Origin: Candidatus Kaiserbacteria bacterium
GTDB taxonomy: Bacteria > Patescibacteriota > Minisyncoccia > Phycocordibacterales > UBA918
NCBI GenBank assembly: GCA_031430855.1
Contig: JANPCG010000013.1
Location: forward strand, 99,781-163,780
Reading direction: 5' to 3'
DNA: 64,000 nt
The translations under genes and the position numbers were made by a program. Positions 1 through 47,881 of this stretch are shown here, piece after piece (position 1 is the stretch's first letter; every line of letters starts with the position of its first letter). The notes beneath the pieces are model-generated. The model saw nothing but the letters and a program-made list of their open reading frames with translations, made no database searches and was not told the origin of the DNA.

Positions 1-208
1 AGGATTGTTCTACAACTGAATATAAATGACCTAACCCCTAAAGTCTTGCTTTGGGATATGGTCGAAAATCCTAACGAAAATACTGAACTCCGTGTTCAGC
101 TACTTTTCGTTAGGTCATATCTGGAAACGGGTATGGGGCTTTAGGGCTCGGCTGGCACGGAGTTCAGTGCGTTTACGTGTCAGCCACACTATTTAAATAA
201 TAAATATT

Positions 209-991: not shown

Positions 992-3049
992 ATGAACTTA
1001 GTAGGTAAGACAATCAATGGCTACGTATTTATTGAATTTATCAATGAAGGCGGTTTTGGAGCTGTATACAAAGCCGAAAAAGCTGGGGTTATTTATGCGA
1101 TAAAACTTTTTCGTGAAGCCTATGTGCTGAAAGAATTTCGCCGTGATGGACATAATCGACTAGAACGTGAGATAGAAATAATGCAGAAAGTTTCAGGTCC
1201 AAATCTCGTTAGTTACATTGAACATTTTGAGTATCAAGACAATGGCTCAAATTATTATTTTTTAGTGATGGATTTTGTTGATGGTGAAACACTACGTACT
1301 ATACTTGATAGAGATGGTCAGCTAGATGAAGCGACTTCAAAAAATATTATCCTGCAAGTACTTGATGGTCTTGAAGTTTTGCATAACTTAAAAAATGGTA
1401 ATTCGTCTGGAATCATACATCGTGACCTCAAACCTGAAAATATAATTATGGACAGAAGTGGAGTGTTAAAGATTGTTGATTACGGTATTTCAAAAGTGAT
1501 TGATTTTACATCCATAACTAGTACTGGTGATGTGTTGGGTACGGGTCCGTATATGTCTCCAGAACAAATTACAGATAGTAAAAATATTGATAGACGCAGT
1601 GATTTATATACTGTTGGCATCTTGTACTATGAATTACTTACAAATGAATTTCCGTATGATTTTCAGTCTGCATTTGAATTGGCTGAAAAAATAAAGGTTG
1701 AACGGCCAATGCCACCACGGAGAAAAGTGCCAGGTATTTCAAACGCAACTGAAAATATTATTTTAAGCTTGCTCGAAAAGGAAGCTTATAAACGACCAGT
1801 AGATGTATCTACAATCAGAGCCTCTTTGTTAAGTGGTGAACCTGCAACAACGCTTAAAGAATATGATTTAACACCAAAATTTATTCTTCACCTGAATGAT
1901 GATAAAACTGTTTTAACAGAGTATCTACCTACAATAAGTGATAATTTAACAGTAGTTTTTCCGGCGAATCTATCCTCTGCACAGAAGGGTTTATTGAGTC
2001 TTATTCAAGGGCAACAAACCCGAGTTATAGTTGACCCCGCAACAGTTCGTCTTGCTTACGACACGTATGCTGATACAAAAGGATTGGTTGAGTTACCGTA
2101 TTCGAGAAAAGACTTTCAGGCAATTACCCCGGATTACCTTTCAGATTATAAGGTCCAAAAGGCTTATGTTAAAAGTGTGATTGATACGGAACATAAATTG
2201 GGGGCTGATGTTTTGTTGTCTCCATTTCATTACACTCATAACTCAAATGTCTCATTAGCTACGAGAAATATGGCGTCAGAGTGGCTGGACTTAGACATAA
2301 AACTTTTAATGGAAGCAATTGATTATCGTAATTCAAGTCCAGAACTAAAAGGAAAAGAATTGTATGCGGGTATTTGCTTACATCATACATCTATTAATGA
2401 TGAGCGTGACCGTAAATACATACTAAACACATTTTCTCTGTTTGATGTGGATGGTTACATAGTTTACGTTGATTCGATTGACAAAGAATCTTCAAAATCA
2501 ACTCTATACAGTTATATAAAACTTGTTACGGAATTACAGCAAAGCACTGGTAAGCCAGTCATAGCAGGACGTATGGGTCAATTTGGCTTAGGTTTGTTAT
2601 GTGCAGGCATTACTGGTTTTACATCAGGTACTGCTCGCTTCGAATCGTTCTATGAGGGTTTGTATAAAGAAGATACCGGTCCAGCATATAACATGTATGA
2701 AAGATATTATTATCCCGAGTTACTTTCTTGTATCTCAATTAAGAAAAAAGACCCAACGAGATTTGATAGTATTGCAGAATTCCTTCCCCCATGCGACTGT
2801 CCTTACTGTATTGGTAAGTCCGTTACAGAAATTATTCAGGCAAAGAATAATAAGTTTCATTTTCTGTATAAATATAAACAAGAAGTAAACGCTATCCTTG
2901 CACTGCCTGAACAAAAAAGAATACCTTACTTTTTAAGTCGTATCGAAGTTGCTATTGATAATTACGCCAAGATGTCACCAAAAGTGTTTGGACCATCTGA
3001 TTATAAACACCTACAAAACTGGCAGGAGGTGTTTAGTAAGCTACAATAG
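992..3049 (+). CDS. Ser/Thr protein kinase (N-terminal about 270 aa) fused to a roughly 400 aa unknown C-terminal domain with a CDCPYC (CxCxxC) motif
   Basis: Hanks kinase motifs visible: GGFGAVYKA glycine loop, AIK lysine, HRDLKPENI catalytic loop, DYG (DFG variant), SPE (APE variant); C-terminal domain unassigned. Confidence 0.8.
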   Translation: MNLVGKTINGYVFIEFINEGGFGAVYKAEKAGVIYAIKLFREAYVLKEFRRDGHNRLEREIEIMQKVSGPNLVSYIEHFEYQDNGSNYYFLVMDFVDGETLRTILDRDGQLDEATSKNIILQVLDGLEVLHNLKNGNSSGIIHRDLKPENIIMDRSGVLKIVDYGISKVIDFTSITSTGDVLGTGPYMSPEQITDSKNIDRRSDLYTVGILYYELLTNEFPYDFQSAFELAEKIKVERPMPPRRKVPGISNATENIILSLLEKEAYKRPVDVSTIRASLLSGEPATTLKEYDLTPKFILHLNDDKTVLTEYLPTISDNLTVVFPANLSSAQKGLLSLIQGQQTRVIVDPATVRLAYDTYADTKGLVELPYSRKDFQAITPDYLSDYKVQKAYVKSVIDTEHKLGADVLLSPFHYTHNSNVSLATRNMASEWLDLDIKLLMEAIDYRNSSPELKGKELYAGICLHHTSINDERDRKYILNTFSLFDVDGYIVYVDSIDKESSKSTLYSYIKLVTELQQSTGKPVIAGRMGQFGLGLLCAGITGFTSGTARFESFYEGLYKEDTGPAYNMYERYYYPELLSCISIKKKDPTRFDSIAEFLPPCDCPYCIGKSVTEIIQAKNNKFHFLYKYKQEVNAILALPEQKRIPYFLSRIEVAIDNYAKMSPKVFGPSDYKHLQNWQEVFSKLQ

Positions 3050-3057
3050 TAGTAGTT

Positions 3058-3690
3058 ATGTTTTCATTAGAAAAAGATGTTGTTAAAGTGCTTGATGCAA
3101 ATATCAACCACATCTTTGGTGAAGGTCGTTCCGTATTAGAGTTTTCATGTGGTGTTGGCCGTCCCGATATTATGTTTGGAAGGATGGTAAATAACAATGA
3201 CAGGGAATCAATCGCTGATTACGATTCCATGTTAGTCTTATCAACTTTTTGTGTACGAAAAGGTCAATTAGTTACGGCCGATAGAATACGAGAAAGTACA
3301 AATTTTTCTGGTAAAAAAATTGATGAAATAATCAAGCTTCTTTCAGACCATGAATATATAAAGCAAAGTAGTACGAATAAGTACGTTGTCACTAGAAGAT
3401 ATGAACCACCAGTACAAGATTTTATTTCTATTGAAGTGAAAATGAAAGACTGGAGACAGGGTTATTATCAGGCCGTAAGATATTCAAGTTTCTCGACAAA
3501 AAGTTATTTAGCAATATCGTCTGAATATATTAACAATGTTGATATTGAAGTCTTAAGAAAAGACGGTATTGGACTTATTTCCGTAGGTTCTAGTACTGCA
3601 AAGATTCTAGTGTTAGCAAAGAAGATAAAGCACAATAACAAAATTGCACATTATTTATCAACTGAGAGATTTAGAGGTTGTCTGCAGTAA
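3058..3690 (+). CDS. hypothetical protein, PD-(D/E)xK nuclease-like (GRPD ... IEVK motif spacing)
   Basis: GRPDIMFG followed about 90 aa later by SIEVKMKDW resembles the PD...(D/E)xK restriction-endonuclease-fold signature; inference only. Confidence 0.35.
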   Translation: MFSLEKDVVKVLDANINHIFGEGRSVLEFSCGVGRPDIMFGRMVNNNDRESIADYDSMLVLSTFCVRKGQLVTADRIRESTNFSGKKIDEIIKLLSDHEYIKQSSTNKYVVTRRYEPPVQDFISIEVKMKDWRQGYYQAVRYSSFSTKSYLAISSEYINNVDIEVLRKDGIGLISVGSSTAKILVLAKKIKHNNKIAHYLSTERFRGCLQ

Positions 3691-3798
3691 TTTAACTCAA
3701 TAAGGGCTACTGTTATTGCCTAAAACTTCACATGGGCTTGGTAGGGTGACCTAATATTATTTGATGAAAAGATTATCGTTTCAGACTATAATCAAGGC

Positions 3799-4458
3799 GT
3801 GGTAAACGTCTACACTGAATATTTCAAAGAACTCATGGACTTCCTGTATGGGATAGTAATAAGCTTGCCTGATTCGATGGGGGTAACTAACATATCTTAC
3901 TCATTTGATGATTATCGCACTAGTATTGGACAACAGGTCCAGCTTTTGGAATCGCTTGAGAAAGTTGGCGTCCTGAAAATTATTTATAAAGTGCCTTTAC
4001 CGCCAGTCGTAAAATTCACACTTAATACAAGTGGGAATAGGTATTCAGCCTCTGGTTGTCTGGGTTATGAATTGGAGATAAATAAGGATGAATTTTTGCG
4101 ATACAGGGCCAATAGTAGTTTGTTGAGCGTAAATAATGATGAACACCAGTATGAATTGCCACATTTGTCTGATAACGGGCGAATTCTTTTTGTTAATGGT
4201 GATGAAATTATTTTAAGTAAGCACGGGGAGATGACTAAAAGTTATGCGATAGCAAATTTAATTTTTAATAATGACGACTACCAATGTACAAACGAAGCAT
4301 TAGTTGATATGGCTGGAAGTGCTAAAGATAGAAAGAGCCCGAAGTCTTTTGTAGATAATGCCGTGAAGTATTTTAACCGCAAAGTTAATATACCGAATTT
4401 TGTTAGACAATCTGAGGGAATAATTTTATTGAATGAGAAATACACAAATTTTCGGTAA
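3799..4458 (+). CDS. hypothetical protein
   Basis: ORF track, AT-rich island codon usage, no motif recognised. Confidence 0.4.
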   Translation: MVNVYTEYFKELMDFLYGIVISLPDSMGVTNISYSFDDYRTSIGQQVQLLESLEKVGVLKIIYKVPLPPVVKFTLNTSGNRYSASGCLGYELEINKDEFLRYRANSSLLSVNNDEHQYELPHLSDNGRILFVNGDEIILSKHGEMTKSYAIANLIFNNDDYQCTNEALVDMAGSAKDRKSPKSFVDNAVKYFNRKVNIPNFVRQSEGIILLNEKYTNFR

Positions 4459-4531: not shown

Positions 4532-4694
4532 ATGCGTTTAGAAGACAAGCACATTAATCAATTTATTGAGCTGTACTTAAAAAAGTACGGTGTGGTTTTG
4601 GAACGTGCTGAAGCAACGCAAATGGCTATTAGGTTTGCGAGTTGTATTCGTGTGGTCGAATCGAATTCATTTATTAAACAAGAAGAAAATAAGT

Positions 4695-5189
4695 ATGGAC
4701 AATGATGAGGATTCTATTGAGGGTGGCTATGTGATTATGCCACGTAATATAGCCCGTGATAGCCGAAATGGTTTGATGACAAACCCCGAACGGAATTTGT
4801 TGTTATGGATTCGGTTGATAGCTGATGTTCGAGGTGTAAGCCATTGTTCCATGAAAGGACTTGCAGATGAAGCCTTTAACGACAAAGTTTCCAATTCGTA
4901 TATAAATAAAATACTACGTTCATTAAAGAAGAAGAGATACCTTTGGTACCAAGACCGCAATGGTCGCAGAGGTACGTTCGAGATTCATTTACGTGATTGG
5001 TTCTTGAAAGATAAGGTTATTAAGGATATTACAAATTTGTTTGAAAAGGAGTCAGTCAAAGCTCAATCAAAGGCCAGGTGGAATCCTGATGCTAAACCCA
5101 GACCAATTTCTGAGGAAGAGAGTCAGAGGATTGTAGATAGAAGAAAAGCAATTACAGCAAAGCTTTCTATGCATCAAAAGCAACTGTGA
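4695..5189 (+). CDS. hypothetical basic protein (possible DNA-binding or regulatory protein of the mobile element); start moved to the MDNDED methionine
   Basis: ORF 4590..5189; first ATG at 4695; Arg/Lys-rich. Confidence 0.4.
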   Translation: MDNDEDSIEGGYVIMPRNIARDSRNGLMTNPERNLLLWIRLIADVRGVSHCSMKGLADEAFNDKVSNSYINKILRSLKKKRYLWYQDRNGRRGTFEIHLRDWFLKDKVIKDITNLFEKESVKAQSKARWNPDAKPRPISEEESQRIVDRRKAITAKLSMHQKQL

Positions 5190-5273: not shown

Positions 5274-5876
5274 TTGATTTCGGTTATGTCACGAGAACTT
5301 ACAACTTCACGCTTATTATTAGATATTCGAAAGATGTATTTCTTGGAAATGATTCCGAAGAATGGATATAAGACTGGTAGATTTGCATGGTATCAAAACA
5401 ATACTGAATTAGGGTACATAAATTATCAGTCTTCTGTTGGAAGGACATATGCTGGTCTTCAACTGATTTATCAAATTACATACCAAGGGGGTGAGGTTAA
5501 AAACATCAATCAGGAAGTGTTGCTGACGGGTATTGATTGTCATTTTGGGGGTTTCCGTTGGTACTTCAAATGCCCAGGATGTAATGCACGAGTAGCAGTG
5601 CTTTATAGCGGTCAAAATGGCTTCTACTGTAGAAAATGTAACCATCTAGCATACGAAGGTCAAAATGATTCAAAACTGAACAGAGAGGGCATTTTTCGCT
5701 TATGGTCCATTACAGATAAAGAAGAAAAGATGATTGCACGGATAGGGCGTACTTTATACAAAGGTAAGCCTACTAGGAAGTATAAACAGCTTTTGGATAT
5801 ACAAAAAAAGAATGGATTGATAGTGAGAGAAGAAGTACAAAAAGAGTATAATAAAACCAATAATGAAAAATTTTAG
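5274..5876 (+). CDS. hypothetical zinc-ribbon protein (CPGC...CRKC)
   Basis: four Cys in CxxC...CxxC arrangement; overlaps the recombinase start by 14 nt (operon-like). Confidence 0.45.
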   Translation: MISVMSRELTTSRLLLDIRKMYFLEMIPKNGYKTGRFAWYQNNTELGYINYQSSVGRTYAGLQLIYQITYQGGEVKNINQEVLLTGIDCHFGGFRWYFKCPGCNARVAVLYSGQNGFYCRKCNHLAYEGQNDSKLNREGIFRLWSITDKEEKMIARIGRTLYKGKPTRKYKQLLDIQKKNGLIVREEVQKEYNKTNNEKF

Positions 5877-7629
5877 CGACAACAAATACTTCATCTATAT
5901 TCGGAGGTCGCAAGATGCTGAGGACCGTCAAATGGCGAGTCTGGAAGACCAGGAAGCTGAAATGCGAACTGTGGCCGAAAGGTACAATTTAAATGTGGTT
6001 GATGTGATTGGTGAGTCACGGTCCGCCAAACACCCAGGTAGACCTAAGTTTAATGAAATGCTTGCACGCTTGCATGCTGGTGAAGCTAATGGGGTGTTGT
6101 GTTGGAAATTGAATCGACTGTCTCGCAATCCAATAGATGGTGGCCAGATTTCATGGTTGTTACAACAAAAAGTAATTTCTCATATCAGGACCATTGAAAG
6201 AGATTATTTACCAACTGATAACGTCATTATGATGGCGGTTGAACTTGGTATGGCTAATCAGTTTTCAAATGATTTAAGTGTTGATGTTAAGAGAGGTATG
6301 CGACAAAAGGCTGGGCGTGGCTGGAATTCACAAAGCACACTACCTGTTGGTTATAGGCATAACACTGGTTATGAAAAAGACGGTGAAGAGATAGTTTCTA
6401 CTTCTGACCTTCAAATTGTTAAAAAAGTTTTAGGTACTTTTTTAGAAGGTGCACATTCGGTGTCGGATATTCAGCGACTAGGTACTGTCCTTGGGCTTGT
6501 AAACAAGAGGGGTAAACCACATGTCTATAACACGTATCTGAATATGTTGAGATGTCATATGTACTATGGTTACTTCCAGTGGCGAGACAGTGACGGTGTT
6601 GAACAGTGGCATAAGGGAAAACACGAACCAATTATTACTGAAGAACAATTTAATCAAGTTCAGTTAATGCTTGGTAAGCGTGGAAGACCAACAAGAATTA
6701 ATACATACGACTTTGCGTTTCGTGGCCCGCTGTCTTGCGGTGAGTGTGGTTGTGCTGTTACTGCTGAAAGAAAACTACAGTGTATTTGTACTGGGTGTAA
6801 AAGAAAATTTTCGTGCAAAACTGCTAAGGCTTGCCCAGATTGTGCTTTGCAAATAGGTGATATGAAAAAGCCAAGTTTCGTTGATAAAACTTACTATCGT
6901 TGCACTAAGAGAAAGAAGGGATACAAATGTTCTCAAAAATGCATTGAAGAAAGTAAGCTTCATACTGACATTGACGGCATATTGCAAGATATGGAAATAG
7001 ATAAGGACTTCTATCAATGGGCTAAAATGGCCTTACGTGACGTTCATAGTAGTGAAATTGATGAACAGCGTGAAATCGTAAAAAGAACAGCCAAGAAAAG
7101 AGATGAGCTTTTTCAGCGATTGAATAACTTGGTCCTGATGCGTGCTGACGGTGAGATTTCGTCTGACCAACTTAAAGACATGAAAGGTAAAGCGGAAAGG
7201 GAATTACATGAAGTCGAAAAAGAGTATCGAGCACTGGACCAGCGAGCTTTGCACTGGGTAGATATTGCTGATGGCTACCTGACGTTTACTGAGAAAGCTT
7301 GTGACCTATTTAACACAACTACTAATTTGAGTCTCAAGCGTGAGATACTTCAAACCCTTGGTTCGAACCTAGAAATTTTTAATCAAAAGCCAATGTTCGT
7401 AATGGCTAAACCGCTTATTGCATTGAAAAATGTTCATGTGCGTACCTACAAAGAATTAGGTACGTTCGAACCTAAAAAAGCCCTTGATAAACAAGGACTT
7501 TCTAAGGAAAAAGCTATTGCTTTTTCAGTTCTGTGCGCCGGGAGGGATTCGAACCTTCGTAGGCTGATGCCAGCAGATTTACAGTCTGCCCTCGTTGACC
7601 GCTTGAGTACCGACGCAAATATAGTGTAG
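5863..7629 (+). CDS. large serine recombinase (resolvase/invertase catalytic domain + recombinase domain + Cys4 zinc ribbon)
   Basis: N-terminal YIRRSQDAEDRQMASLEDQ (catalytic Ser + Q...L..Q) and LNRLSRN motifs; CGECGC...C..C zinc ribbon; 588 aa, typical of large serine recombinases. Confidence 0.8.
   Translation: MKNFSDNKYFIYIRRSQDAEDRQMASLEDQEAEMRTVAERYNLNVVDVIGESRSAKHPGRPKFNEMLARLHAGEANGVLCWKLNRLSRNPIDGGQISWLLQQKVISHIRTIERDYLPTDNVIMMAVELGMANQFSNDLSVDVKRGMRQKAGRGWNSQSTLPVGYRHNTGYEKDGEEIVSTSDLQIVKKVLGTFLEGAHSVSDIQRLGTVLGLVNKRGKPHVYNTYLNMLRCHMYYGYFQWRDSDGVEQWHKGKHEPIITEEQFNQVQLMLGKRGRPTRINTYDFAFRGPLSCGECGCAVTAERKLQCICTGCKRKFSCKTAKACPDCALQIGDMKKPSFVDKTYYRCTKRKKGYKCSQKCIEESKLHTDIDGILQDMEIDKDFYQWAKMALRDVHSSEIDEQREIVKRTAKKRDELFQRLNNLVLMRADGEISSDQLKDMKGKAERELHEVEKEYRALDQRALHWVDIADGYLTFTEKACDLFNTTTNLSLKREILQTLGSNLEIFNQKPMFVMAKPLIALKNVHVRTYKELGTFEPKKALDKQGLSKEKAIAFSVLCAGRDSNLRRLMPADLQSALVDRLSTDANIV
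7534..7616 (-). tRNA. tRNA-Tyr (anticodon GTA) with long variable arm, no encoded CCA
   Basis: manual fold: acceptor GCGTCGG/CCGGCGC, anticodon loop CTGTAAA, variable stem GGC/GCC, T-loop GGTTCGAATCC; lies inside the 3' end of the recombinase ORF on the opposite strand. Confidence 0.8.
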
Positions 7630-7710: not shown

Positions 7711-8874
7711 ATGATGCGTCTGTTTGTCTTTTTTTGTCTCGTGGGTGTTTTTGCTATCGCACCTCTCATGGTCGATGCGCGTGGCCTCGTGCCGTGTGGT
7801 GGGCCGGGAGAACCTGCCTGTCAATCATGTCATGTGGTTGCGCTCACTAATAATATTATTGGGTGGCTCGTATTGATCCTTGGGACTATTGCGGCAATTG
7901 TTATTGTTTACGCGGGAGTAAAGCTGGTAACCTCAGCGGGTAATCAGGGAGCCATGGAGGATGCCAAGAGTTTGATTACTAATATCATAATCGGGTACGT
8001 GATTGTGTTGGCGGGGTGGCTCATTATTGACTACGTGATGAAGGTGCTCGTTGATGAGGGGAGTTTTGGTGTCTGGAATCAGCTTGAATGTACCACGCAG
8101 GTGGTGCCAGGAGCGGCGGATATTAATACTATCGATTTTAGTTTGCCGTATGCGCCGCTTGATGCTGACTTGGGTAGTCTCCAAGGGTGGGTGCCGTCTG
8201 GTACGACAGCGACCGGTGGTCCGGGTGGAACAACGGCTCCGGGTTCGTATAGTTCGGCGTGTCGCCTCTTGCCTAATCCTCCGGGAGTCAGGGAATACGA
8301 TTGTAGTGCGCAGCAGACACAATGCAGAAGCGCCGGAGGGACGCCGTCACTCAATACTGATGGTTCTACGGTCATGTGTGCACCGGCGCAGATTACTGGT
8401 GGAGGAGGCGGCTCGTGTACGGTCGTTACTAATCCATCAAATGCGTGCCATCCAAGCCGATTGACGTGTTTTCCTGATCGAAACCTTGCGTCTGAAATTT
8501 GTAATCTTGAGAGTGGCGGAGGAGATACTACAAGAATGTCTGGTTCTGATTTGTGTCGGGATGGTCGGTCATTTTCAGTTGGGCTATGGCAAATAAATAT
8601 TTTAGCCAACCGAGCACTTATTCCTGGCTGCACGGGAACCTTCTTTACTTCAGACAATAATGGTCGGAGTGAAGGTAGTTGTATCCAGTATCGGACTAAC
8701 AGTCGTGGTGTTCGGTATTGTCAGTATCGATCGTGTGAGATCACTAATGTGGCTACATATAACCGTTGTGTCTCAAATGCGCGAATTCCTGCAAACAATA
8801 CTACGGCTGCCTGTAGTCTCATGCGTTCTCAGGGATGGAATGCCTGGGCTACATCGTATAATTTATGTCGATAA
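7711..8874 (+). CDS. secreted protein: TrbC/VirB2-pilin-like N-terminal domain fused to a Cys-rich lysozyme or lytic-transglycosylase-like C-terminal domain
   Basis: signal peptide; CGGPGEPACQSC; two hydrophobic helices (IIGWLVLILGTIAAIVIVYAGVKLV, IIGYVIVLAGWLIIDYVM) as in TrbC/VirB2; C-terminus has ES...GLWQIN...TYN resembling GH23 (E-S, GLMQ, AYN) motifs. Confidence 0.55.
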   Translation: MMRLFVFFCLVGVFAIAPLMVDARGLVPCGGPGEPACQSCHVVALTNNIIGWLVLILGTIAAIVIVYAGVKLVTSAGNQGAMEDAKSLITNIIIGYVIVLAGWLIIDYVMKVLVDEGSFGVWNQLECTTQVVPGAADINTIDFSLPYAPLDADLGSLQGWVPSGTTATGGPGGTTAPGSYSSACRLLPNPPGVREYDCSAQQTQCRSAGGTPSLNTDGSTVMCAPAQITGGGGGSCTVVTNPSNACHPSRLTCFPDRNLASEICNLESGGGDTTRMSGSDLCRDGRSFSVGLWQINILANRALIPGCTGTFFTSDNNGRSEGSCIQYRTNSRGVRYCQYRSCEITNVATYNRCVSNARIPANNTTAACSLMRSQGWNAWATSYNLCR

Positions 8875-8877
8875 TAT

Positions 8878-9402
8878 ATGTTTTTTAAAATACTATTTAT
8901 GTTGTTTGCAGCGGGGAGTGTCGTTTTTGGTGTCTGGTACGTCATGATATATAGTCCGCTGCAAGTTGTTGATACTACGCCGAGTGGTCAAACAGGGATA
9001 GATTTCCCGACTCTGAATACAAATGAAATACCGGAAATTGTTATCAATCATTCACCAAACACTATCGCCACCAGTAAAGATGTTTCCATTTCAGACACAC
9101 CACTTATTCTTCATCGAGATGTAAAAGAGATTGCGCCAGATTTTTATCAAATGAGCGGAGATACTGGTCAATATGAAGTAAGTTATAGTCGACCAAGTGG
9201 TAGTGTAACGATTACTCTTTATGGAGAAGATACGAAAAAATCCCGTGCGAATGCTGAAGCCTACATACTCAAAACGTTGCCGTATACGGAAGATGAGTGG
9301 TGTGGGTTTGTGGTGACGGTAATAACGAATCAGTTTGAAAACCCGACCTGGGCCGGGCAAAATCTAGGTCTGAGTTTCTGTCCGGGTTCGATAGCTCTCT
9401 AA
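8878..9402 (+). CDS. membrane-anchored hypothetical protein (candidate immunity or partner protein)
   Basis: single N-terminal TM helix then soluble domain; sits between the two TrbC-like hydrolase genes. Confidence 0.45.
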   Translation: MFFKILFMLFAAGSVVFGVWYVMIYSPLQVVDTTPSGQTGIDFPTLNTNEIPEIVINHSPNTIATSKDVSISDTPLILHRDVKEIAPDFYQMSGDTGQYEVSYSRPSGSVTITLYGEDTKKSRANAEAYILKTLPYTEDEWCGFVVTVITNQFENPTWAGQNLGLSFCPGSIAL

Positions 9403-10371
9403 ATGAAAAAAATTCTCGTCATTGCTTTGCCACTTTTCGTTCTCGGGCTCTTTTTTGTTCCAGAAATTAATACCCTAGAAGCACAGGGTATTGCACAGTT
9501 AGCACAATGTTCGGGTAATGATTGTACCTCGTGTAATTTAGTTCACCTTGGTAATGGACTTATTCAATGGTTGATCGGAATTCTCTTTATAATCTTTGCC
9601 ATTTTGACGGTCGTTGCAGGGGTGCGTTTAGTAATTTCAGGCGGCAGTACTCAGGCGCTCGATAGCGCCAAAGAATTGTTTAAAAATGCCTTCATTGGAT
9701 TTGTGATTGTCCTCGCGTCCTGGCTTATTGTTGATACCATTATGCGCGTACTGCTCGGTAATGGTGGAAGGTTGGGTTCGTCAGGTGAAGTGTCGGGTTG
9801 GTTATTTTGGTCAGAGGTTGAGTGTCAGACGGTGCGTGATGCAACGCGAGCGGAAATTCGAACGGTTGAATTCGATTTACCAGAAGCCTTAATTGATCAA
9901 GGTGGTGGTACGGCTGGGCAGATTACAATCTCAACACCTTCGGGACCGCAAGTTGTTAACGTTTCCCCTTGTGATACATCAACTTTAACTACCATTAACT
10001 TTTTGGGTGGTAGTGTGACGCTCAATCGGCAGTTTGCAGCAAGTGCGGCCCGGATTGACGCAGCTTGGAGAGCCCGAGGAGGAAATAGTTTCTATCGAGT
10101 GACATCAATTGGTGGTTATGCATGCCGAAATGTGGCCGGTACAAATAGACGGTCCAATCATGCGTATGGTTTGGCGATTGATATTAATCCAGCGCAAAAT
10201 CCACACACCTTTCCTGGTGATTCTAATTACGGACAAACGAATATGCCACCCGCCTTTCGTCAGATCTTTTTGAATGAAGGGTGGGGCTGGGGAGGGAACT
10301 GGAACTCTTCAAAAGACACGATGCACTTTAGTAAAGCGACGGGAGAGGGTGGTAATATGAGAGGAAATTAA
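9403..10371 (+). CDS. secreted protein: TrbC/VirB2-like N-terminal domain fused to LAS/M15-family metallopeptidase (D-Ala-D-Ala carboxypeptidase or endolysin-type) domain
   Basis: N-domain about 60 percent identical to the two paralogs (CSGNDCTSCNLVHL..., GVRLVISGG...IGFVIVLASWLIVDTIMR); C-domain SNHAYGLAIDINP ... DTMHFS matches the SxHxxGxAxD...H zinc-peptidase signature. Confidence 0.65.
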   Translation: MKKILVIALPLFVLGLFFVPEINTLEAQGIAQLAQCSGNDCTSCNLVHLGNGLIQWLIGILFIIFAILTVVAGVRLVISGGSTQALDSAKELFKNAFIGFVIVLASWLIVDTIMRVLLGNGGRLGSSGEVSGWLFWSEVECQTVRDATRAEIRTVEFDLPEALIDQGGGTAGQITISTPSGPQVVNVSPCDTSTLTTINFLGGSVTLNRQFAASAARIDAAWRARGGNSFYRVTSIGGYACRNVAGTNRRSNHAYGLAIDINPAQNPHTFPGDSNYGQTNMPPAFRQIFLNEGWGWGGNWNSSKDTMHFSKATGEGGNMRGN

Positions 10372-10373
10372 GT

Positions 10374-10973
10374 ATGAAACCACGAATCATTCTCGGTATG
10401 CTGGTGTTGTTACTCACACTAATTGTTTGCGTTTGGTATTTTACTAAAGGTACTTCTGATGAAGTTCCGGGTAGGGTGACTGACTTTTCAGCCATTGGTG
10501 TACCAACGACTGCTGAAGATACTTCGTTTACAAGCTTATTGAAACAACAGCCTGATGAAACACAACAGAAGGTGCTCGATAATATATATCTAGACGAATA
10601 TTATCTCTATCCGTGTAATATAACTAATCCACCAACTGATGTGGTAGTTTTGGTCGCTCAGTATAAACCAAATAGTGCTGGCTTAAATACCTTTCAAACG
10701 GCACAATCTGCCGTAAAGACTTTTGAAGATGACATATACCCTAATTGGGGACATCTGATTTTTAAAGATTCCTTTAATGCAGCACTGTCCGTGCGGAATT
10801 TTAGTGAAAAAGGAGTGAGTGATCCTGAGCTTGTGACCGAGACCTATCGGGTTGGATTATCGCCTGATGGGCAAACGCAGGTGTATTATGGGTGGGTACT
10901 CAATTATATTGTCGTAGCGTCTTCGAAAGACTGTTTAATTGAAACTATGAAACAAGTTTATTCCATTCATTAG
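10374..10973 (+). CDS. membrane-anchored hypothetical protein (candidate immunity or partner protein)
   Basis: N-terminal TM helix ILGMLVLLLTLIVCVWYF, soluble remainder; follows the M15 fusion gene with a 2 nt gap. Confidence 0.45.
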   Translation: MKPRIILGMLVLLLTLIVCVWYFTKGTSDEVPGRVTDFSAIGVPTTAEDTSFTSLLKQQPDETQQKVLDNIYLDEYYLYPCNITNPPTDVVVLVAQYKPNSAGLNTFQTAQSAVKTFEDDIYPNWGHLIFKDSFNAALSVRNFSEKGVSDPELVTETYRVGLSPDGQTQVYYGWVLNYIVVASSKDCLIETMKQVYSIH

Positions 10974-10993
10974 CGCTCGATAATTGTACCCAT

Positions 10994-12106
10994 ATGAAAT
11001 ACCTCCCCATCATTTTATTTATCACATTTTCATTCGGCTTTATGTTTGTGCCTGAGACTGGTGTCGCACAAGCCCCGGGTTTGGTGCAGCTCGCACAGTG
11101 TACCGGTAATGATTGTACGGCGTGTAATTTAGTTCATTTAGCGAACGGTATCATTCGGTGGGTGATTGGTATTCTCTTTGTGATATTTGCGGTCTTGGTG
11201 GCGATTGCGGGAGTGCGATTGGTGATTTCGGGGGGTAATAGCCGGGCTTTGGATGAAGCCAAAGAAACGTTTATCAATGCCATTATTGGATTTATCATTG
11301 TTCTCTCTGCGTGGCTTATCATTGATACCGTGATGCGTACCTTGGTCGGCAATGAGGGACGTTTGGGATCGACTGGTTCGGTGTCTGGGTGGCTATTTTG
11401 GTCGGAGGTTGAGTGTCAGACGGTGAGAAATGCTACTGCGGCTGAAATCAGAACTATTCAGTTTGAACTCGCTACAGCTGAGTTTTGGCCTGGTGATCCG
11501 GGTGGAGCGTTTGGAACATCAGAGGTGGTATCAGTTACATCGTGTGCCGCTACTCCGGCTGGTAACATAAATTGTACAGCGCTCGAGAGTGCGTGTCGTG
11601 CTGCTGGCAACTCGCCAATAGTCGACAGAACTAATCCAGTCGACTATCGCGTTAATTGTGTCAGTGTTTCCGATACTCCAGCAGCTCCAGTAAGCGGCTC
11701 TGGTTCGACCGGATGTACCGGAGGGGCGTGTGTGCCGCTGACGATACCGTGTAGTGCATCTGGTTGTACGATTGCGAGAGATATGGTGTCGCGGTTAGCT
11801 GGTATGCATTCTGCGGCTGGGGTTTCTGGTGCGCGAGTGACCGAAGCGATGCCGCCGAGTCGACAACATAGAAGTGCCTGTCACCAAAATGGAACCTGTA
11901 TCGATTATAGTAAAGCGGGTGGTATGAGTGGTGGAGAGGTAGCCCGTGTGATTTCCGCAGCGTCGCGTAACGGATTACGAGCGGTATACGAAGTGCAAAC
12001 ACAGACGCAAAAAAATGCTTTGGTAGCTGCTGGTGCCCCCGCTGGAAATATCACTGTGCTTGGTAATTGGATTAGTGCCCCACACTTTTCAATTTACGGG
12101 AGTTAG
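10994..12106 (+). CDS. secreted protein: TrbC/VirB2-like N-terminal domain fused to a Cys-rich, divergent M15-like peptidase domain
   Basis: N-domain nearly identical in pattern to 9403..10371; C-terminal RSACHQNGTCID ... SAPHFS mirrors the H..G...D ... HF pattern of the neighbouring M15 domain. Confidence 0.5.
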   Translation: MKYLPIILFITFSFGFMFVPETGVAQAPGLVQLAQCTGNDCTACNLVHLANGIIRWVIGILFVIFAVLVAIAGVRLVISGGNSRALDEAKETFINAIIGFIIVLSAWLIIDTVMRTLVGNEGRLGSTGSVSGWLFWSEVECQTVRNATAAEIRTIQFELATAEFWPGDPGGAFGTSEVVSVTSCAATPAGNINCTALESACRAAGNSPIVDRTNPVDYRVNCVSVSDTPAAPVSGSGSTGCTGGACVPLTIPCSASGCTIARDMVSRLAGMHSAAGVSGARVTEAMPPSRQHRSACHQNGTCIDYSKAGGMSGGEVARVISAASRNGLRAVYEVQTQTQKNALVAAGAPAGNITVLGNWISAPHFSIYGS

Positions 12107-35124: not shown

Positions 35125-35195
35125 TGCCGATTCGTCTAATGGTAGGACTCTGGTTTCTGGTACCAGCTATTGGGGTTCGAGTCCCTGATCGGCAG
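35125..35195 (+). tRNA. tRNA-Gln (anticodon CTG), U1-A72 pair
   Basis: manual fold: acceptor TGCCGAT/ATCGGCA, anticodon arm CTGGT-TTCTGGT-ACCAG, T-loop TTCGAGT; immediately precedes the GC drop. Confidence 0.75.
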
Positions 35196-35269
35196 CTTCT
35201 TATTTTAACTATATTTTCAATAAAATTGGTTCGAGTCAAAGATGCAAATTGGTCTGGTATACTTTTTGT

Positions 35270-36193
35270 ATGATAGATACTGATTTTCAAGAAAGATTAA
35301 TCGCACATTTAGAAAGAGAGTCCAATTTAATAATTGTATCAACTCAACTTTCTCCTCAAGGAATGTCTAGTTCTGTTTTCTTTATTAAAACAGCACAAGG
35401 TAAAGAATATGCAGTAAAATATGGTGTTGACGCTATGAAAGATATCCCTGCTCTTAATTTGCTTTCGAGGGAACAGGTTAGCATCTCTGTACCGTCAGTG
35501 CTTTGCTCGTTTCGTTTTGAAGAGACATCTGTAATCGTATTGGAAAAAATACAGTTTCCACTATTGGAAACGGTTGCTATGGAAGAAACACCAAAATACA
35601 TTCCTTCAATAATAAAAAATTTGAGAAAGCTACACAGAATAAAATCTATATCTCCAGGATTACTTAACGAACCAGACAGTCAGATGACATGGAAGGAAAT
35701 AATACTTGATATTTTTGAGGGTAATGCATTTAATTGGCAAGAGATTTCGCAGAGGGAAGTAATAAATACTGATTTGATAACAGTATCAGTAGAGAAAGTG
35801 ATCAAGAAAATAAATGACACTGAATTTCCGGTTGGAGAATATTCACTTTTACATACGGACTTTAATCAAAGAAATCTATTTGTGAATCAAGAGAATTATG
35901 AGATAGCAGGAATAATTGATTGGGAAGATGCGATGTATGGAGATCCAATTTATGACTTTGCAAGAGTGCGTATGTATTTATGGCACTTTAATATTGGGAA
36001 TCAGGCAATCAAAAAATACTACGAACTAATGGACTTCACCCCTCATCAAAAAGAGCTTGAGGATTTATACTGGCTTACTCGTGTAATTCAATATATCGGT
36101 TGGTATTCAGAAGAATTAAATGAATTTACTAGAGGGAGGATTAACCTTCATCAAGATTATCTACAATCATACGATTGGTCAAAAAAGTTCTAA
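35270..36193 (+). CDS. aminoglycoside/choline-kinase-like phosphotransferase (APH family)
   Basis: HTDFNQRNLF (HxDxxxxN catalytic loop) and IIDWEDAMYGDPIYDFA (IDWE...D) motifs. Confidence 0.7.
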   Translation: MIDTDFQERLIAHLERESNLIIVSTQLSPQGMSSSVFFIKTAQGKEYAVKYGVDAMKDIPALNLLSREQVSISVPSVLCSFRFEETSVIVLEKIQFPLLETVAMEETPKYIPSIIKNLRKLHRIKSISPGLLNEPDSQMTWKEIILDIFEGNAFNWQEISQREVINTDLITVSVEKVIKKINDTEFPVGEYSLLHTDFNQRNLFVNQENYEIAGIIDWEDAMYGDPIYDFARVRMYLWHFNIGNQAIKKYYELMDFTPHQKELEDLYWLTRVIQYIGWYSEELNEFTRGRINLHQDYLQSYDWSKKF

Positions 36194-36543
36194 TGGTGCG
36201 AATAGTCATAAGATTCGTCCAGGACCGTCCTAGGCGAAACTTTCCTAGCATATCGCTCAATTACCGTCGAGATGTGAAGATAAAAGTATAAGTGATAGGC
36301 CTTGCAGGTCTCAACCTCCCACAGTTCTAGCTCAAGGAAGCCAGTCCTTAGCATAGATTATCCTGTAAAGGGTGATCTTGTCTTAAGGCTACTTGAAGCA
36401 TCTTTATTGGGAGAGTCCTAGGCAAAGTATGCAAAAGTGCTGGCTGATGACGCCATTTAAAGGTATTATTAAATTGCGCCTATTATTGGACTCTAAACGG
36501 AAGTGTTTGTGTCAAGTGAACTAGTATAGATATTTTTGATAGT

Positions 36544-38049
36544 TTGATAAATTATGGTATGAATGAAAATAAGGATAAGGATTTTATAGATGACAAGATT
36601 ACTTCAAGAGCTGCTGATTTTTCTCAATGGTACCTAGATGTGATTAAAGCTGCTGATTTGGCTGAAAATTCACCCGTGAGAGGTTGTATGGTTATAAAAC
36701 CATACGGATATGCTATTTGGGAAAATATACAAAAGATTTTGGATAAAGAATTTAAAGATAAGGGAACAGAAAATGCCTACTTTCCTTTATTAATACCAAA
36801 AAGTTTTTTAGAAAAGGAAGCAGTACACGTTAATGGTTTCGCAAAAGAGTGTGCGGTTGTTACACACCATAGACTAGAAGAAAAGGATGGTAAATTAATT
36901 CCAGCAGGTGAATTGGAAGAGCCTTTAATAATTCGTCCTACATCTGAGACAATTATTTACGATGCTTTTTCAAGGTGGATAAATTCATATCGCGACTTAC
37001 CTCTACTAATAAATCAATGGTCAAACGTTTTTAGATGGGAAATGAGAACACGACCTTTTTTACGCACATCCGAATTTTTATGGCAAGAAGGGCATACTGC
37101 ACACTCCTCGAAAGAGGAGGCTGATAAAAAAACTCTAGAAATGTTAGAGGTATATCGAATGCTTGCAGAGGATTATCTTGCTATTTCGCTCGTCTTAGGA
37201 AGAAAAACTGAAAGTGAGAAGTTTGCGGGCGCAGACTACACCACCACGATTGAGGCAATGATGCAAGATGGTAAAGCTCTTCAGTCAGGGACGTCTCACA
37301 TGCTTGGTCAAAATTTCTCAAAATCATTTGATGTGTCATATTTGGATGAGAATCAAAAAAAACAATATGTTTGGCAAACAAGCTGGGGTCTATCCACAAG
37401 AATTATCGGTGCGATCATCATGTCTCACTCTGATGATAAGGGACTAGTTCTGCCTCCTAAAATCGCTCCATTTCAAGTGATAATTATTCCAATTTACGCC
37501 ACTGAAGAAGATCGAATAGCTGTTATGGAAAAGGTTTCCGTCATTAAAGACGATTTAAATTCAGCGGGAATTTCATTCAAGCTTGATGATAGAGTTGGTC
37601 GTCCTGGCTTTAAATATTTTGAATGGGAAAGAAAAGGTGTTCCATTAAGATTTGAGATTGGACCAAAAGACGTAGAAAAGGGTTCAGTTGTTGTTGTGGA
37701 AAGATTACATGGTACAAAAGAATTTGTTCGGGATAAAGACATTGTTTCATTTGCCCATTCAAGTTTGAAAGAAATGCAAGACTCGCTTTTTGCAAATTCA
37801 AAAAAGTTCAAGGTTGAAAACACTAGGGAAGTCGCAGATTACGAAGAATTTAAGAAGACGATAAGTAATAAAATTGGTTTTGTCTTTGCATATCTTTGTC
37901 TAGATAAAAACTGTGAAGAGAAAATTAAAGAGGAGACCAAGGCATCTAGTAGGTGTATTCCTTTTGAGGGAGGGGTTGGTAATTCTGGTAAATGTATCTA
38001 CTGCGGCAAAGATACTCCTTATAAAGTGCTGTTTGGGAAGGCTTACTAG
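36544..38049 (+). CDS. proS: prolyl-tRNA synthetase, archaeal/eukaryotic type (class IIa, C-terminal Zn-binding domain)
   Basis: colinear similarity to archaeal-type ProRS (FSQWY, YFPLLIPKSFLEKEA.HV.GF, RPTSETIIY, FRWEMRTRPFLRTSEF, CIYCGK); ORF starts TTG 36544, first ATG 36559. Confidence 0.85.
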   Translation: MINYGMNENKDKDFIDDKITSRAADFSQWYLDVIKAADLAENSPVRGCMVIKPYGYAIWENIQKILDKEFKDKGTENAYFPLLIPKSFLEKEAVHVNGFAKECAVVTHHRLEEKDGKLIPAGELEEPLIIRPTSETIIYDAFSRWINSYRDLPLLINQWSNVFRWEMRTRPFLRTSEFLWQEGHTAHSSKEEADKKTLEMLEVYRMLAEDYLAISLVLGRKTESEKFAGADYTTTIEAMMQDGKALQSGTSHMLGQNFSKSFDVSYLDENQKKQYVWQTSWGLSTRIIGAIIMSHSDDKGLVLPPKIAPFQVIIIPIYATEEDRIAVMEKVSVIKDDLNSAGISFKLDDRVGRPGFKYFEWERKGVPLRFEIGPKDVEKGSVVVVERLHGTKEFVRDKDIVSFAHSSLKEMQDSLFANSKKFKVENTREVADYEEFKKTISNKIGFVFAYLCLDKNCEEKIKEETKASSRCIPFEGGVGNSGKCIYCGKDTPYKVLFGKAY

Positions 38050-38054
38050 AGACT

Positions 38055-39185
38055 ATGATTGATATTGTTATTGACAGAAATTTCAGTTTGAACGAGTTGT
38101 TGCAGCTCGGGAAAAAGGGGTTCAAGGTTTTAAAAACTCCTCATGTAGGAAATCAATACATGAATAATTTAATCATTGCTGTGTTGGGTTTTGATATTTT
38201 GGTGTATGACCGAAACATTGGGTTCAAAGACAAAAATTTCCATCCACAATCTGTCATCTTTAATACACGGGAAGAAAAAATTTTTTCAGAAGCTGGGCTG
38301 ACTATTCACTCAAAAAAGATTCTCATAAAAACTGAGAACTCATTTATAAATGAATTATTGCGCGGCTACACTAATCCAGTTTGTTTTCATAATCATTACT
38401 TTTCACTAGCTTGTAATAACCACAAAATTAGTACTTACTCGGAATTTTTAACTAAACATAAAGAAAAAATAGCTAAGATAATTAGTTATACACATGAATT
38501 ATTCAAAGATGATTGGTATAGATATGTAACAAAAGAACAAGAGGTTGTCAACAAAACTGGCTACGTAAGTGGAGACGCTATACTGGGCTTAACGCATAAT
38601 GATTTTGGATGGATTATTCCAAACATTTATAACGTGTTATTTCATTGTGTGATTGACCAAAAAGAAGGGAAAGTATTTCTTTTGTCTGGGCCAGATATGT
38701 ATAAATATATTTGTGAATATGAAGAGCGACTTTCTCGTTCTTGGAGTTATATAATAAAAGAAATTCCAAGTTTGCCAACTCAGGTACAGTGCTTAATTAT
38801 ACCTGTAGCTAAAATTAGATTTGCTATCCCGGAGAAGTATAAAACGTATTTAGATGATGTTTTGAATACATACAATAAAATTAAGGAGTGTGAGAAAAGG
38901 ATGGTTTCTGATGGCGCACAAAATACAAAATTAAATAATTTGGCATACAAACAAGAACTAGTTTCATCTTTGAAATCAATTTTTCAGAAACGTAAAGCAC
39001 TATTTGAAAGTACTATCTTTTATGATATTCGTAAGGCAAGTTCATTTTCACAGTACGACCTACTTCATGTTAAAAGATTGTATGTTCCTGAAATAGTATT
39101 AACCAAAAAGATTTATGAAATAGAGAGTATGTATGATGAACTTTTGAGATACTTTAAATCGAGCAAATATGTCAATGAAGTATAA
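38055..39185 (+). CDS. hypothetical protein
   Basis: ORF in AT-rich island, no motif recognised. Confidence 0.4.
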   Translation: MIDIVIDRNFSLNELLQLGKKGFKVLKTPHVGNQYMNNLIIAVLGFDILVYDRNIGFKDKNFHPQSVIFNTREEKIFSEAGLTIHSKKILIKTENSFINELLRGYTNPVCFHNHYFSLACNNHKISTYSEFLTKHKEKIAKIISYTHELFKDDWYRYVTKEQEVVNKTGYVSGDAILGLTHNDFGWIIPNIYNVLFHCVIDQKEGKVFLLSGPDMYKYICEYEERLSRSWSYIIKEIPSLPTQVQCLIIPVAKIRFAIPEKYKTYLDDVLNTYNKIKECEKRMVSDGAQNTKLNNLAYKQELVSSLKSIFQKRKALFESTIFYDIRKASSFSQYDLLHVKRLYVPEIVLTKKIYEIESMYDELLRYFKSSKYVNEV

Positions 39186-41182: not shown

Positions 41183-41185
41183 GGT

Positions 41186-42097: not shown

Positions 42098-42123
42098 TTA
42101 GAGTATTAATTATACAACAAACT

Positions 42124-44353: not shown

Positions 44354-44382
44354 GAGCGGTCAGTAATTAATAAAACTACAAC

Positions 44383-47825: not shown

Positions 47826-47881
47826 AGCTTTTAGATAGTAGCATATATTTTGGTAATACAGTGATATAATAGAGATTAATT

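What the first reader, a model, noticed from the sequence alone, without database searches (positions are those of the whole stretch)
992..4458. Ser/Thr kinase fusion followed by a PD-(D/E)xK-like nuclease on an integrative island: candidate kinase-based defence module
The 685 aa protein has a complete Hanks kinase domain followed by a roughly 400 aa uncharacterised domain. The next gene, 9 nt downstream, carries a GRPD...IEVK arrangement typical of restriction-endonuclease-fold nucleases. A further unknown gene follows. All lie on an AT-rich element that ends in a serine recombinase next to a tRNA. This is the usual location of anti-phage systems, and kinase-nuclease pairings are not among the classical described systems.
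Basis: inference. Interest (0 to 1): 0.65.

Follow-up and report, generated by a model that had tools for sequence, protein, structure and literature searches.

The report
Kinase–transglycosylase-like fusion with partner nuclease
A mobile two-gene cassette encodes a protein kinase fused to a divergent relative of the base-swapping enzyme TGT, always followed by a DNA-cutting enzyme, and it looks like an undescribed bacterial anti-virus system, though no experiment has tested this.

Summary
ORF 992-3049 encodes a complete Hanks-type Ser/Thr kinase plus a ~400 aa domain. ORF 3058-3690 is a PD-(D/E)xK nuclease. Both lie on an ~8.9 kb serine-recombinase island at tRNA-Tyr.

New findings:
- The module has two genes, not three. 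The nuclease follows the fusion in all 36 testable genomic loci, and the two co-evolve (r = 0.94). ORF3 is found nowhere else.
- Kinase-less relatives of the TGT-like protein carry the same nuclease family in 3 of 4 loci examined, with a PIN gene in two of those; the fourth, a short contig, has a RES gene. So TGT-like plus nuclease appears to be the core, and the kinase one of several swappable effector-type domains.
- Distribution is rare and patchy (38 of 185,579 species, many phyla). The contexts seen include a type I R-M operon, Shedu, Wadjet and integrase islands. No relative is found in viral contigs.

No Pfam, PADLOC, PHROG or literature entry describes it. The most likely reading is a new defence system whose mechanism is inferred only.

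The parts
992..3049 (+). Gene 1: Ser/Thr kinase fused to a TGT-like domain (685 aa)
   Evidence: ORF. The family shares ~50% identity across phyla and has a constant 675-695 aa architecture.
1025..1798 (+). Hanks-type protein kinase domain (residues 12-269), predicted active
   Evidence: Pfam Pkinase E 2.7e-47. K38, HRD143-145, DYG163-165 and SPE189-191 are present and nearly invariant in the family.
1856..3046 (+). TGT-fold (β/α)8 barrel domain with a C-terminal zinc subdomain (residues 289-685)
2792..2860 (+). Zinc-binding motif C601-x-C603-x-x-C606 … H623
   Evidence: Invariant in 50 fused homologues. C601, C606 and H623 are also ≥90% conserved in kinase-less relatives. The motif aligns to the ArcTGT and E. 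coli TGT zinc motif.
2033..2038 (+). D348-P349 (DPxT), a superfamily-conserved acidic residue at the end of strand β3; candidate general acid/base
   Evidence: Nearly invariant in the broad alignment A6. Equivalence to TGT Asp89(Ec)/Asp102(Zm) is inferred from its position on the strand and is not given by the alignment.
2642..2644 (+). E551 (ARFES), which aligns with the TGT nucleophile Asp264(Ec)/Asp280(Zm)
   Evidence: hhalign A6 against A8, probability 48%. ≥90% conserved in the fused family; the Glu is the majority residue in the broad consensus.
3058..3690 (+). Gene 2: PD-(D/E)xK nuclease with an inserted winged helix (210 aa)
3220..3390 (+). Winged-helix insert of the nuclease (residues ~55-111)
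3799..4458 (+). ORF3 (219 aa): island cargo of unknown function, NOT part of the conserved module
   Evidence: No homologue in any of 38 other loci. No family hit. It has its own promoter-like site at 3764-3792.
5863..7629 (+). Large serine recombinase of the carrying island
   Evidence: Resolvase E 4.6e-17 and Recombinase E 1.2e-7. CcrA/B- and XisF-like hits in NCBIfam.
7532..7553 (.). Right-hand attachment repeat (3' end of tRNA-Tyr, whose gene spans 7533-7616 on the minus strand)
   Evidence: A 22-nt exact copy lies at L001:7617-7638, 1.39 kb left of the window. A 20/21-nt (95%) copy lies at L001:6608-6628.

Best explanation
This is a self-contained, horizontally mobile two-gene module and most likely an undescribed anti-phage or anti-mobile-element defence system.

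Gene 1 fuses a catalytically competent Hanks-type Ser/Thr kinase to a divergent TGT-fold domain. That domain keeps the zinc subdomain that canonical TGTs use to hold nucleic acid. It also keeps acidic residues at or near the two catalytic positions (D348; E551 in place of the nucleophile Asp). It has lost the guanine/7-deazaguanine recognition residues. Gene 2 is an active-site-intact PD-(D/E)xK nuclease with a winged-helix DNA-binding insert.

Proposed mechanism (inferred, not shown):
1. The TGT-like domain and the nuclease form a nucleic-acid-surveying core.
2. The TGT-like domain flips a base of invader DNA (or RNA) into its remodelled pocket and recognises, excises or exchanges it.
3. This event licenses the nuclease and switches on the fused kinase.
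4. The kinase acts as the toxic or signalling effector. The PIN RNase and RES domains would hold the equivalent place in the kinase-less sister cassettes.

What is shown: the folds, motif conservation, strict gene pairing and co-evolution, patchy and mobile distribution, defence-type neighbourhoods, and absence from viral contigs. What is inferred: the defence function, the substrate, the order of events and the role of the kinase.
For: - Pairing. The nuclease lies directly downstream in 36 of 36 loci. Mirror-tree r = 0.94, Mantel 0/2000.
- Core plus variable effectors. Kinase-less TGT-like genes sit with ORF2-family nucleases (E 1e-37, 6e-36, 3e-30). They also sit with PIN_3 (L052, L059), RES (L061) or a CapP-like protease (L051).
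- Mobility. The module occurs in 38 of 185,579 species, spread over Patescibacteria, Bacteroidota, Ignavibacteriota, Calditrichota, Chlorobiota, Planctomycetota, Proteobacteria, Firmicutes and an archaeal MAG, at 45-63% identity. Every context is different.
- Defence or MGE neighbours. The module is inserted between hsdM and hsdS/hsdR in L026, L031 and L043. Shedu is adjacent in L048. HEPN, a BrxC/D-like ATPase and Wadjet are nearby in L046. Serine-recombinase islands carry it in the window and in L049. Type I R-M families top the list of neighbour Pfam families.
- Decay. Frameshifted copies in L010, L042 and L043 indicate a dispensable gene.
- None in 2.9 M viral contigs.
- Cap10, the protein-directed TGT relative, lacks the Zn site (bioRxiv 10.1101/2025.04.06.647259). 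This family keeps it, which fits a nucleic-acid substrate.
Against: - No experimental data exist.
- Several contexts show no defence genes (L004, L005, L047), and no formal enrichment statistic was computed.
- The residue-level alignment to TGT has modest confidence (hhalign probability 48%). The equivalence of D348 to the TGT general acid is not given by the alignment.
- A Glu at the nucleophile position and the loss of base-recognition residues could equally mean an inactive, binding-only domain like QTRT2.
- Nothing shows that kinase, TGT-like domain and nuclease communicate.
- The kinase-less comparison rests on only four loci.
Confidence: 0.5

Rival explanations
1. A base-exchange restriction-modification system, Dpd-like in logic. 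The TGT-like domain marks host DNA by swapping a base. The wHTH nuclease cuts unmarked incoming DNA. The kinase (or PIN or RES) regulates the system or acts as a back-up abortive effector.
For: - TGT-fold enzymes do modify DNA for self-marking in the Dpd system (PMC10164549).
- The strict pairing of enzyme and nuclease, and their co-evolution, is what an M-R pair shows.
- The module sits inside type I R-M operons.
- The Zn nucleic-acid-binding subdomain is kept.
Against: - The three Asp that are invariant in TGT and DpdA (PMC10164549) are not all present. There is no Asp in the base-recognition segment LLSPFHYTHN, and a Glu sits at the nucleophile position.
- No preQ0-synthesis, DpdB or DpdC genes were seen in the window's island, and none appear among the most frequent neighbour families. 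So there is no evident donor base.
- The TGT-like part is much more conserved than the nuclease (57% against 44% mean identity). That is unlike specificity-matched M-R pairs.
Confidence: 0.2
2. A toxin-antitoxin or addiction-type stabilisation module of mobile elements, or another element-selfish function. The kinase or nuclease is the toxin, with no primary role in phage defence.
For: - It occurs on integrative islands (window; L049).
- The sister cassettes carry PIN and RES, which are classic TA toxin domains.
- A cassette sits inside a ribosomal-protein operon, which suggests selfish insertion.
- Kinase toxins such as HipA are known from the literature.
Against: - Many copies are not on recognisable mobile elements.
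- Both proteins are large enzymes with nucleic-acid-directed folds, and there is no small labile antitoxin.
- TA modules and defence systems overlap in any case.
Confidence: 0.15
3. A PD-T4-6- or Stk2-type single-protein kinase abortive-infection system. The C-domain would be only a phage sensor, and the downstream nuclease an unrelated neighbour.
For: The kinase domain scores E 1.7e-61 against PADLOC PD-T4-6 models and also matches mad6, MkoA and Stk2 models.
Against: - All those matches cover only the kinase domain (protein residues ≤321, profile positions ≤~300).
- The score equals that for housekeeping PknB-type kinases (205 bits).
- The nuclease is present in 36 of 36 loci and co-evolves with gene 1. 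It also stays with kinase-less relatives.
Confidence: 0.05
4. A housekeeping function: a signalling kinase coupled to a tRNA-modifying transglycosylase, plus a repair nuclease.
For: TGT is a housekeeping tRNA enzyme and tops the structure searches.
Against: - It occurs in 38 of 185,579 species with no conserved neighbourhood.
- There is no Pfam or NCBIfam TGT match even at E ≤ 10.
- The queuine/guanine-binding residues are lost.
- Pseudogenised copies exist.
Confidence: 0.03

Closest known systems
DpdA / Dpd 7-deazaguanine DNA modification-restriction system
   Different: - There is no sequence-level family match.
- The base-recognition Asp is absent and the nucleophile position holds a Glu.
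- No DpdB, DpdC or preQ0-synthesis genes were seen.
- This is a two-gene cassette rather than an ~11-gene cluster.
- It is fused to a protein kinase.
Bacterial/eukaryotic tRNA-guanine transglycosylase (TGT, QTRT1/QTRT2)
   Different: - About 14-16% identity, with no Pfam PF01702 hit.
- The D143, Q187 and GGL (E. coli numbering) base-pocket residues are replaced.
- Distribution is patchy and mobile.
- It is always paired with a nuclease.
Cap10 of type IV CBASS (TGT-family enzyme that handles a nucleobase-protein conjugate)
   Different: - Cap10 lacks the Zn site and its tRNA surface is repurposed for dimerisation (bioRxiv 10.1101/2025.04.06.647259). This family keeps an invariant Zn site.
- No CD-NTase, Cap9 (QueC-like) or Cap11 is present in the module.
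Kinase-containing defence systems (Stk2, PD-T4-6, MADS Mad6, BREX PglW)
   Same: It has an active Hanks-type Ser/Thr kinase domain in a defence-type context. PADLOC kinase models match strongly.
   Different: - The similarity is confined to the generic kinase domain.
- None of those models covers the C-terminal 400 aa.
- None of those systems pairs the kinase with a TGT-fold domain and a dedicated wHTH PD-(D/E)xK partner.
PD-(D/E)xK nucleases SPO1766 (3dnx), PaqCI, NucS, XisH-like
   Same: The core fold is shared, along with the D…ExK catalytic arrangement followed by a QxxxY helix.
   Different: - No family-level sequence match.
- A winged helix is inserted between the first catalytic strand (D37) and the ExK strand.
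- It is linked obligately to a TGT-like gene.

Membership tests
TGT / DpdA transglycosylase family | TGT-type (β/α)8 barrel fold | tested here: met
TGT / DpdA transglycosylase family | C-terminal zinc site CxCxxC…H | tested here: met
   C601, C603, C606 and H623 are invariant in 50 sequences. The motif aligns with the ArcTGT and E. coli TGT zinc motif.
TGT / DpdA transglycosylase family | Nucleophile Asp (Ec D264 / Zm D280 / DpdA D256), invariant in both families (PMC10164549) | tested here: not met
   The aligned residue is Glu (E551, ≥90% conserved in the fused family). There is no Asp in the segment GFTSGxARFESF. Alignment probability is only 48%.
TGT / DpdA transglycosylase family | Base-recognising Asp (Ec D143 / Zm D156 / DpdA D130) | tested here: not met
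   The aligned segment is LLSP(F/Y)HYxHN, with no Asp. Two alternative hhalign registers give the same result.
TGT / DpdA transglycosylase family | General acid/base Asp at the strand end (Ec D89 / Zm D102 / DpdA D95) | tested here: inconclusive
   D348 (DPxT) is nearly invariant across the superfamily and ends strand β3. The low-confidence N-terminal part of the hhalign alignment does not pair it with D89.
TGT / DpdA transglycosylase family | Match to the curated sequence models (Pfam TGT, NCBIfam) | tested here: not met
   No hit at E ≤ 10 (Pfam) or E ≤ 1 (NCBIfam). A profile search of PDB gives only ArcTGT at E 0.029.
Dpd system | Co-located dpdB (ParB-like ATPase), dpdC and preQ0-synthesis genes | tested here: not met
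   None in the window's island. None among the most frequent neighbour families in 25 loci.
Type IV CBASS (Cap10) | Operon with a CD-NTase and QueC-like Cap9; Cap10 lacks the Zn site | tested here: not met
   No such genes lie next to the module. The Zn site is present here.
Hanks-type Ser/Thr protein kinases | Pkinase domain above the curated cut-off with the catalytic Lys, HRD, DFG-type and APE-type motifs | tested here: met
   161.8 bits against a cut-off of 31.7. K38, H143-R-D145, D163-Y-G and S189-P-E are present and conserved in the family.
PD-T4-6 (single-gene kinase defence) | Full-length similarity to a PD-T4-6 model, and function as a single gene | tested here: not met
   Matches cover only protein residues ≤321. 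The C-domain alone has no relevant PADLOC hit; the only match is a chance-level ThsB-like one, E 0.024. There is an obligate partner gene. Function was not testable.
PD-(D/E)xK nuclease superfamily | Restriction-endonuclease-like fold with conserved D…(D/E)xK | tested here: met
Integrative island with a large serine recombinase | Resolvase plus Recombinase domains, and direct repeats of the target at both ends | tested here: met
   Domains. A 22-nt exact repeat of the tRNA-Tyr 3' end lies ~8.9 kb apart.
Anti-phage defence system (functional class) | Protection against phage or MGE on transfer to a naive host | not testable with these tools
   Only contextual evidence is available.

The most novel reading that the evidence does not exclude
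A previously unrecognised superfamily of TGT-fold proteins acts as an immune sensor. Together with a dedicated wHTH PD-(D/E)xK nuclease, it reads, excises or exchanges a base in invader nucleic acid. It then passes the signal to interchangeable effectors: a fused Ser/Thr kinase here, and PIN or RES elsewhere. This would be a transglycosylase-based mode of nucleic-acid sensing, distinct from both Dpd (self-marking) and Cap10 (protein conjugation).
Probability: 0.3. Interest if true: 0.85.

Novelty: new variant of a known kind. Interest (0 to 1): 0.72.

Why it matters
TGT-fold enzymes have entered bacterial immunity only recently and in two very different ways: Dpd modifies DNA, and Cap10 handles a nucleobase-protein conjugate. 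A third, sequence-undetectable branch would extend the repertoire of base-directed immune chemistry. This branch keeps the nucleic-acid-binding zinc subdomain, has a rebuilt base pocket, is fused to a eukaryote-like kinase, and is locked to a nuclease. It would also provide a rare case in which phosphorylation is wired directly to a nucleic-acid-modifying fold.

The family spans at least nine phyla, including Patescibacteria, whose defence repertoire is poorly known. It is absent from Pfam, NCBIfam, PADLOC and PHROGs, so current defence finders either miss it or would call only a generic kinase. The cassette is small (2.7 kb), and a cultured carrier exists (Marivirga aurantiaca S37H4, locus L022), so the hypothesis is directly testable.

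Tried and rejected
- The three-gene 'trio' is rejected. ORF3, ORF4, ORF5 and ORF6 have no counterpart in any other locus.
- 'AT-rich means foreign' is rejected as evidence. A second 35% G+C stretch holds ProRS, Ddl and a Mur ligase.
- Phage origin is rejected. No relative was found in IMG/VR.
- hhalign against a single E. coli TGT sequence gave only 1.7% and 14% probability. An alignment of seven TGTs raised this to 48%. This is still too weak to fix every residue.
- Scans of metagenome contigs with alignments of kinase-less relatives failed because no stretch was conserved enough. The kinase-less comparison therefore rests on four loci.
- Promoter scanning was uninformative (28 sites found, 24 expected).
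- Seven literature searches and four papers read found no description of a kinase-TGT fusion or of a TGT-like/PD-(D/E)xK pair.
Full report
**Observation**

- ORF 992-3049 encodes 685 aa. Residues 12-269 are a Pfam Pkinase domain (E 2.7e-47). The glycine loop, K38, HRD143-145, DYG163-165 and SPE189-191 are present and nearly invariant in 49 homologues. The kinase is therefore predicted to be active.
- Residues 289-685 hit nothing in Pfam (E ≤ 10), NCBIfam, PADLOC, PHROGs or PDB sequences.
- ORF 3058-3690 (210 aa) starts 8 nt after the kinase stop codon. It carries GRPD37 and IE126VK128.
- ORF 3799-4458 has no detectable relatives.
- A large serine recombinase (5863-7629) runs into tRNA-Tyr (7533-7616, minus strand).

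**The island**

A public contig with the same sequence (L001) extends 9 kb to the left of the window.
- The last 22 nt of tRNA-Tyr (window 7532-7553) recur exactly at L001:7617-7638, which lies 1.39 kb left of the window. A 20/21-nt (95%) copy lies 1 kb further left.
- This defines an ~8.9 kb integrated element plus a ~1 kb remnant.
- G+C is 37% in the island against 48% to its right. However, a second 35% G+C stretch (35-53 kb) encodes ProRS, Ddl and a Mur ligase. Composition is therefore not evidence of foreign origin here; the repeats and the recombinase are.

**What the C-domain is**

The invariant pattern C-x-C-x-x-C…H (C601, C603, C606, H623) suggested a tRNA-guanine transglycosylase zinc site.
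- An AlphaFold2 model built on 50 sequences is confident (pLDDT 89.9, pTM 0.89).
- Foldseek's top 50 hits are all TGTs (best E 1e-7, probability 1.00, TM ~0.57).
- At the sequence level, a broad profile finds ArcTGT at E 0.029, aligned on the zinc motif. hhalign against seven bacterial TGTs gives E 1.9e-4 and probability 48%.

That alignment pairs the following (E. coli TGT numbering):
- LGAD with LGSD, and GY with GY.
- KP(V/R) before the seventh strand.
- G-x-x-R-F-E551 with G-I-D-M-F-D264.
- The two zinc motifs.
- At the N-terminus, TPxF with TPCF, and PAN with GNT.

In the aligned positions:
- The nucleophile Asp of TGT corresponds to a Glu that is ≥90% conserved in the fused family.
- The base-recognising Asp143 has no acidic counterpart; the segment reads LLSP(F/Y)HYxHN.
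- Gln187 and the GGL stretch are replaced.
- D348 (DPxT) ends strand β3 and is nearly invariant in the whole superfamily. By position it is the likely equivalent of the general acid Asp89, but the alignment does not show this.

According to PMC10164549, all three Asp are invariant in TGT and DpdA. This domain therefore has the TGT fold but is not a member of those families. Cap10, which acts on a protein, has lost the zinc site that stabilises nucleic-acid binding (bioRxiv 10.1101/2025.04.06.647259). The present family keeps it, which points to a nucleic-acid substrate (inference).

**What ORF2 is**

- The AF2 model is confident (pLDDT 93.6).
- E28, D37, E126, K128, Q138 and Y142 are invariant in 53 sequences.
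- The winged helix (residues ~55-111) is inserted between the D strand and the ExK strand.

**The unit is two genes**

- A scan of one genome per species (185,579 species) found 38 loci. They lie in Patescibacteria, Bacteroidota, Ignavibacteriota, Calditrichota, Chlorobiota, Planctomycetota, Alpha- and Gammaproteobacteria, a Firmicute and an archaeal MAG, at 45-63% identity.
- In all 36 loci with downstream DNA, an ORF2 homologue follows within a few bases. No other island gene recurs.
- Pairwise identities of the two proteins correlate with r = 0.94 (Mantel 0/2000). The nuclease evolves faster (44% against 57% mean identity).
- Three copies are frameshifted (L010, L042, L043).

**The conserved core is TGT-like plus nuclease**

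An exhaustive HMMER search found 197 cluster representatives. These include fused proteins down to 24% identity and many ~390 aa kinase-less proteins. Four kinase-less loci could be read.
- L052 and L059: TGT-like gene, an overlapping PIN_3 gene, and a convergent ORF2-family nuclease (E 1e-37 and 6e-36).
- L051: an ORF2-family nuclease (E 3e-30) overlapping the start of the TGT-like gene, plus a CapP-like protease.
- L061: a 2.6 kb contig with a RES-domain gene downstream of the TGT-like gene. Its upstream side is cut off.

The L059 cassette sits between rpsJ and rplC in the ribosomal-protein operon. The kinase thus occupies the place that PIN or RES, both classic toxic effector domains, hold elsewhere.

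**Context**

- In L026, L031 and L043 the pair lies between hsdM and hsdS/hsdR of a type I R-M operon. In L026 a tyrosine integrase lies upstream.
- In L048 it is adjacent to a Shedu gene (SduA_C).
- In L046 it is flanked by HEPN, a BrxC/D-like ATPase with a helicase, and Wadjet.
- In L049, as in the window, it rides a serine-recombinase island.
- Among 132 nearest neighbours from 25 loci, the most frequent Pfam families are type I R-M components. RhuM, integrase, an AbiEii-like ATPase and nucleotidyltransferase families each occur twice, alongside other twice-hit families.
- Other contexts show nothing defence-like.
- No relative occurs in 2.9 million viral contigs.

**Interpretation**

Taken together, these features are the usual signature of a defence system:
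- patchy, cross-phylum distribution;
- variable location, with some loci next to defence or mobile-element genes;
- decay in some genomes;
- nucleic-acid-directed folds;
- a conserved core with swappable effector-type domains.

I estimate about 0.5 for the specific sensor model and about 0.7 for defence in the broad sense, which also covers the Dpd-like R-M reading. The proposed mechanism is that the TGT-like domain interrogates a base in invader nucleic acid and thereby licenses the nuclease and the kinase. This is inference.

The main rivals are:
- a Dpd-like base-exchange R-M system, weakened by the lost base pocket and the absence of donor-base genes;
- a TA or addiction function.

A PD-T4-6-type single-gene kinase system and a housekeeping role are both disfavoured.

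**Novelty**

Neither protein family is in Pfam, NCBIfam, PADLOC v2 or PHROGs. Seven full-text searches and four papers read found no description of the architecture. I rate it a new variant of a known kind, namely defence modules built around a TGT-fold enzyme and a nuclease. There is a realistic chance that the mechanism is new.

Noticed in passing
window 28-149 (+): A full-length match to the Rfam LOOT RNA motif (RF03000): 81.8 bits against a gathering score of 46.4, E 8.6e-14. It lies inside the island, just upstream of the 223-aa membrane-like ORF 209-880. Its relation to the island or to the module is unknown.
   Followed up: no
L001:7600-7770 and L001:6600-6750 (1.2-2.4 kb left of the window start): Each left-hand copy of the tRNA-Tyr 3' fragment is followed by its own reverse complement, which is split by a hairpin. 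The resulting structure is very stable (-74 kcal/mol, z -9.4 against shuffles). Neither ARAGORN nor Rfam recognises it. The two copies flank an HD-domain gene, which suggests tandem integrations.
   Followed up: partly
window 7533-7629: The serine recombinase ORF (5863-7629) reads through the whole tRNA-Tyr gene on the opposite strand. Its last ~32 codons are antisense tRNA and lie beyond the attachment repeat. The C-terminus would therefore differ in the excised form.
   Followed up: no
window 35200-53500: A second low-G+C block (35.4%) starts at tRNA-Gln (35125-35196) but encodes housekeeping genes: ProRS, D-Ala-D-Ala ligase and a Mur ligase. It also encodes an APH-like kinase, a methyltransferase and a PhyH-like dioxygenase. 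The genome, or the assembly, is compositionally mosaic.
   Followed up: partly
window 7711-12106: A run of paralogous secreted or membrane proteins shares a Cys-containing, pilin-like N-terminal module (…QCxGxDCTxCNLVHLxNGxIxW…) with different C-terminal domains, in the 48% G+C block. This may be a surface or secretion gene cluster typical of Patescibacteria. The proteins were not annotated.
   Followed up: no
L059:7701-10302: A kinase-less TGT-like + PIN_3 + ORF2-family nuclease cassette, plus a 91-aa ORF, is inserted between rpsJ and rplC in an otherwise intact S10/spc ribosomal-protein operon.
   Followed up: partly
L026-L029, L031: Identical tblastn identity values to the window's proteins suggest nearly identical copies of the module. 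They sit in MAGs labelled Bacteroidales, Bacteroidota, Marinobacterium, Bacteroidetes and Cyclobacteriaceae. This reflects either very recent transfer or mis-binned contigs.
   Followed up: no
window 4590-5189 (+): This island ORF shows weak similarity to phage replication-initiation and DnaD-like helicase-loader families (PHROG E 1e-4 and 6e-3). The integrative element may replicate after excision.
   Followed up: no
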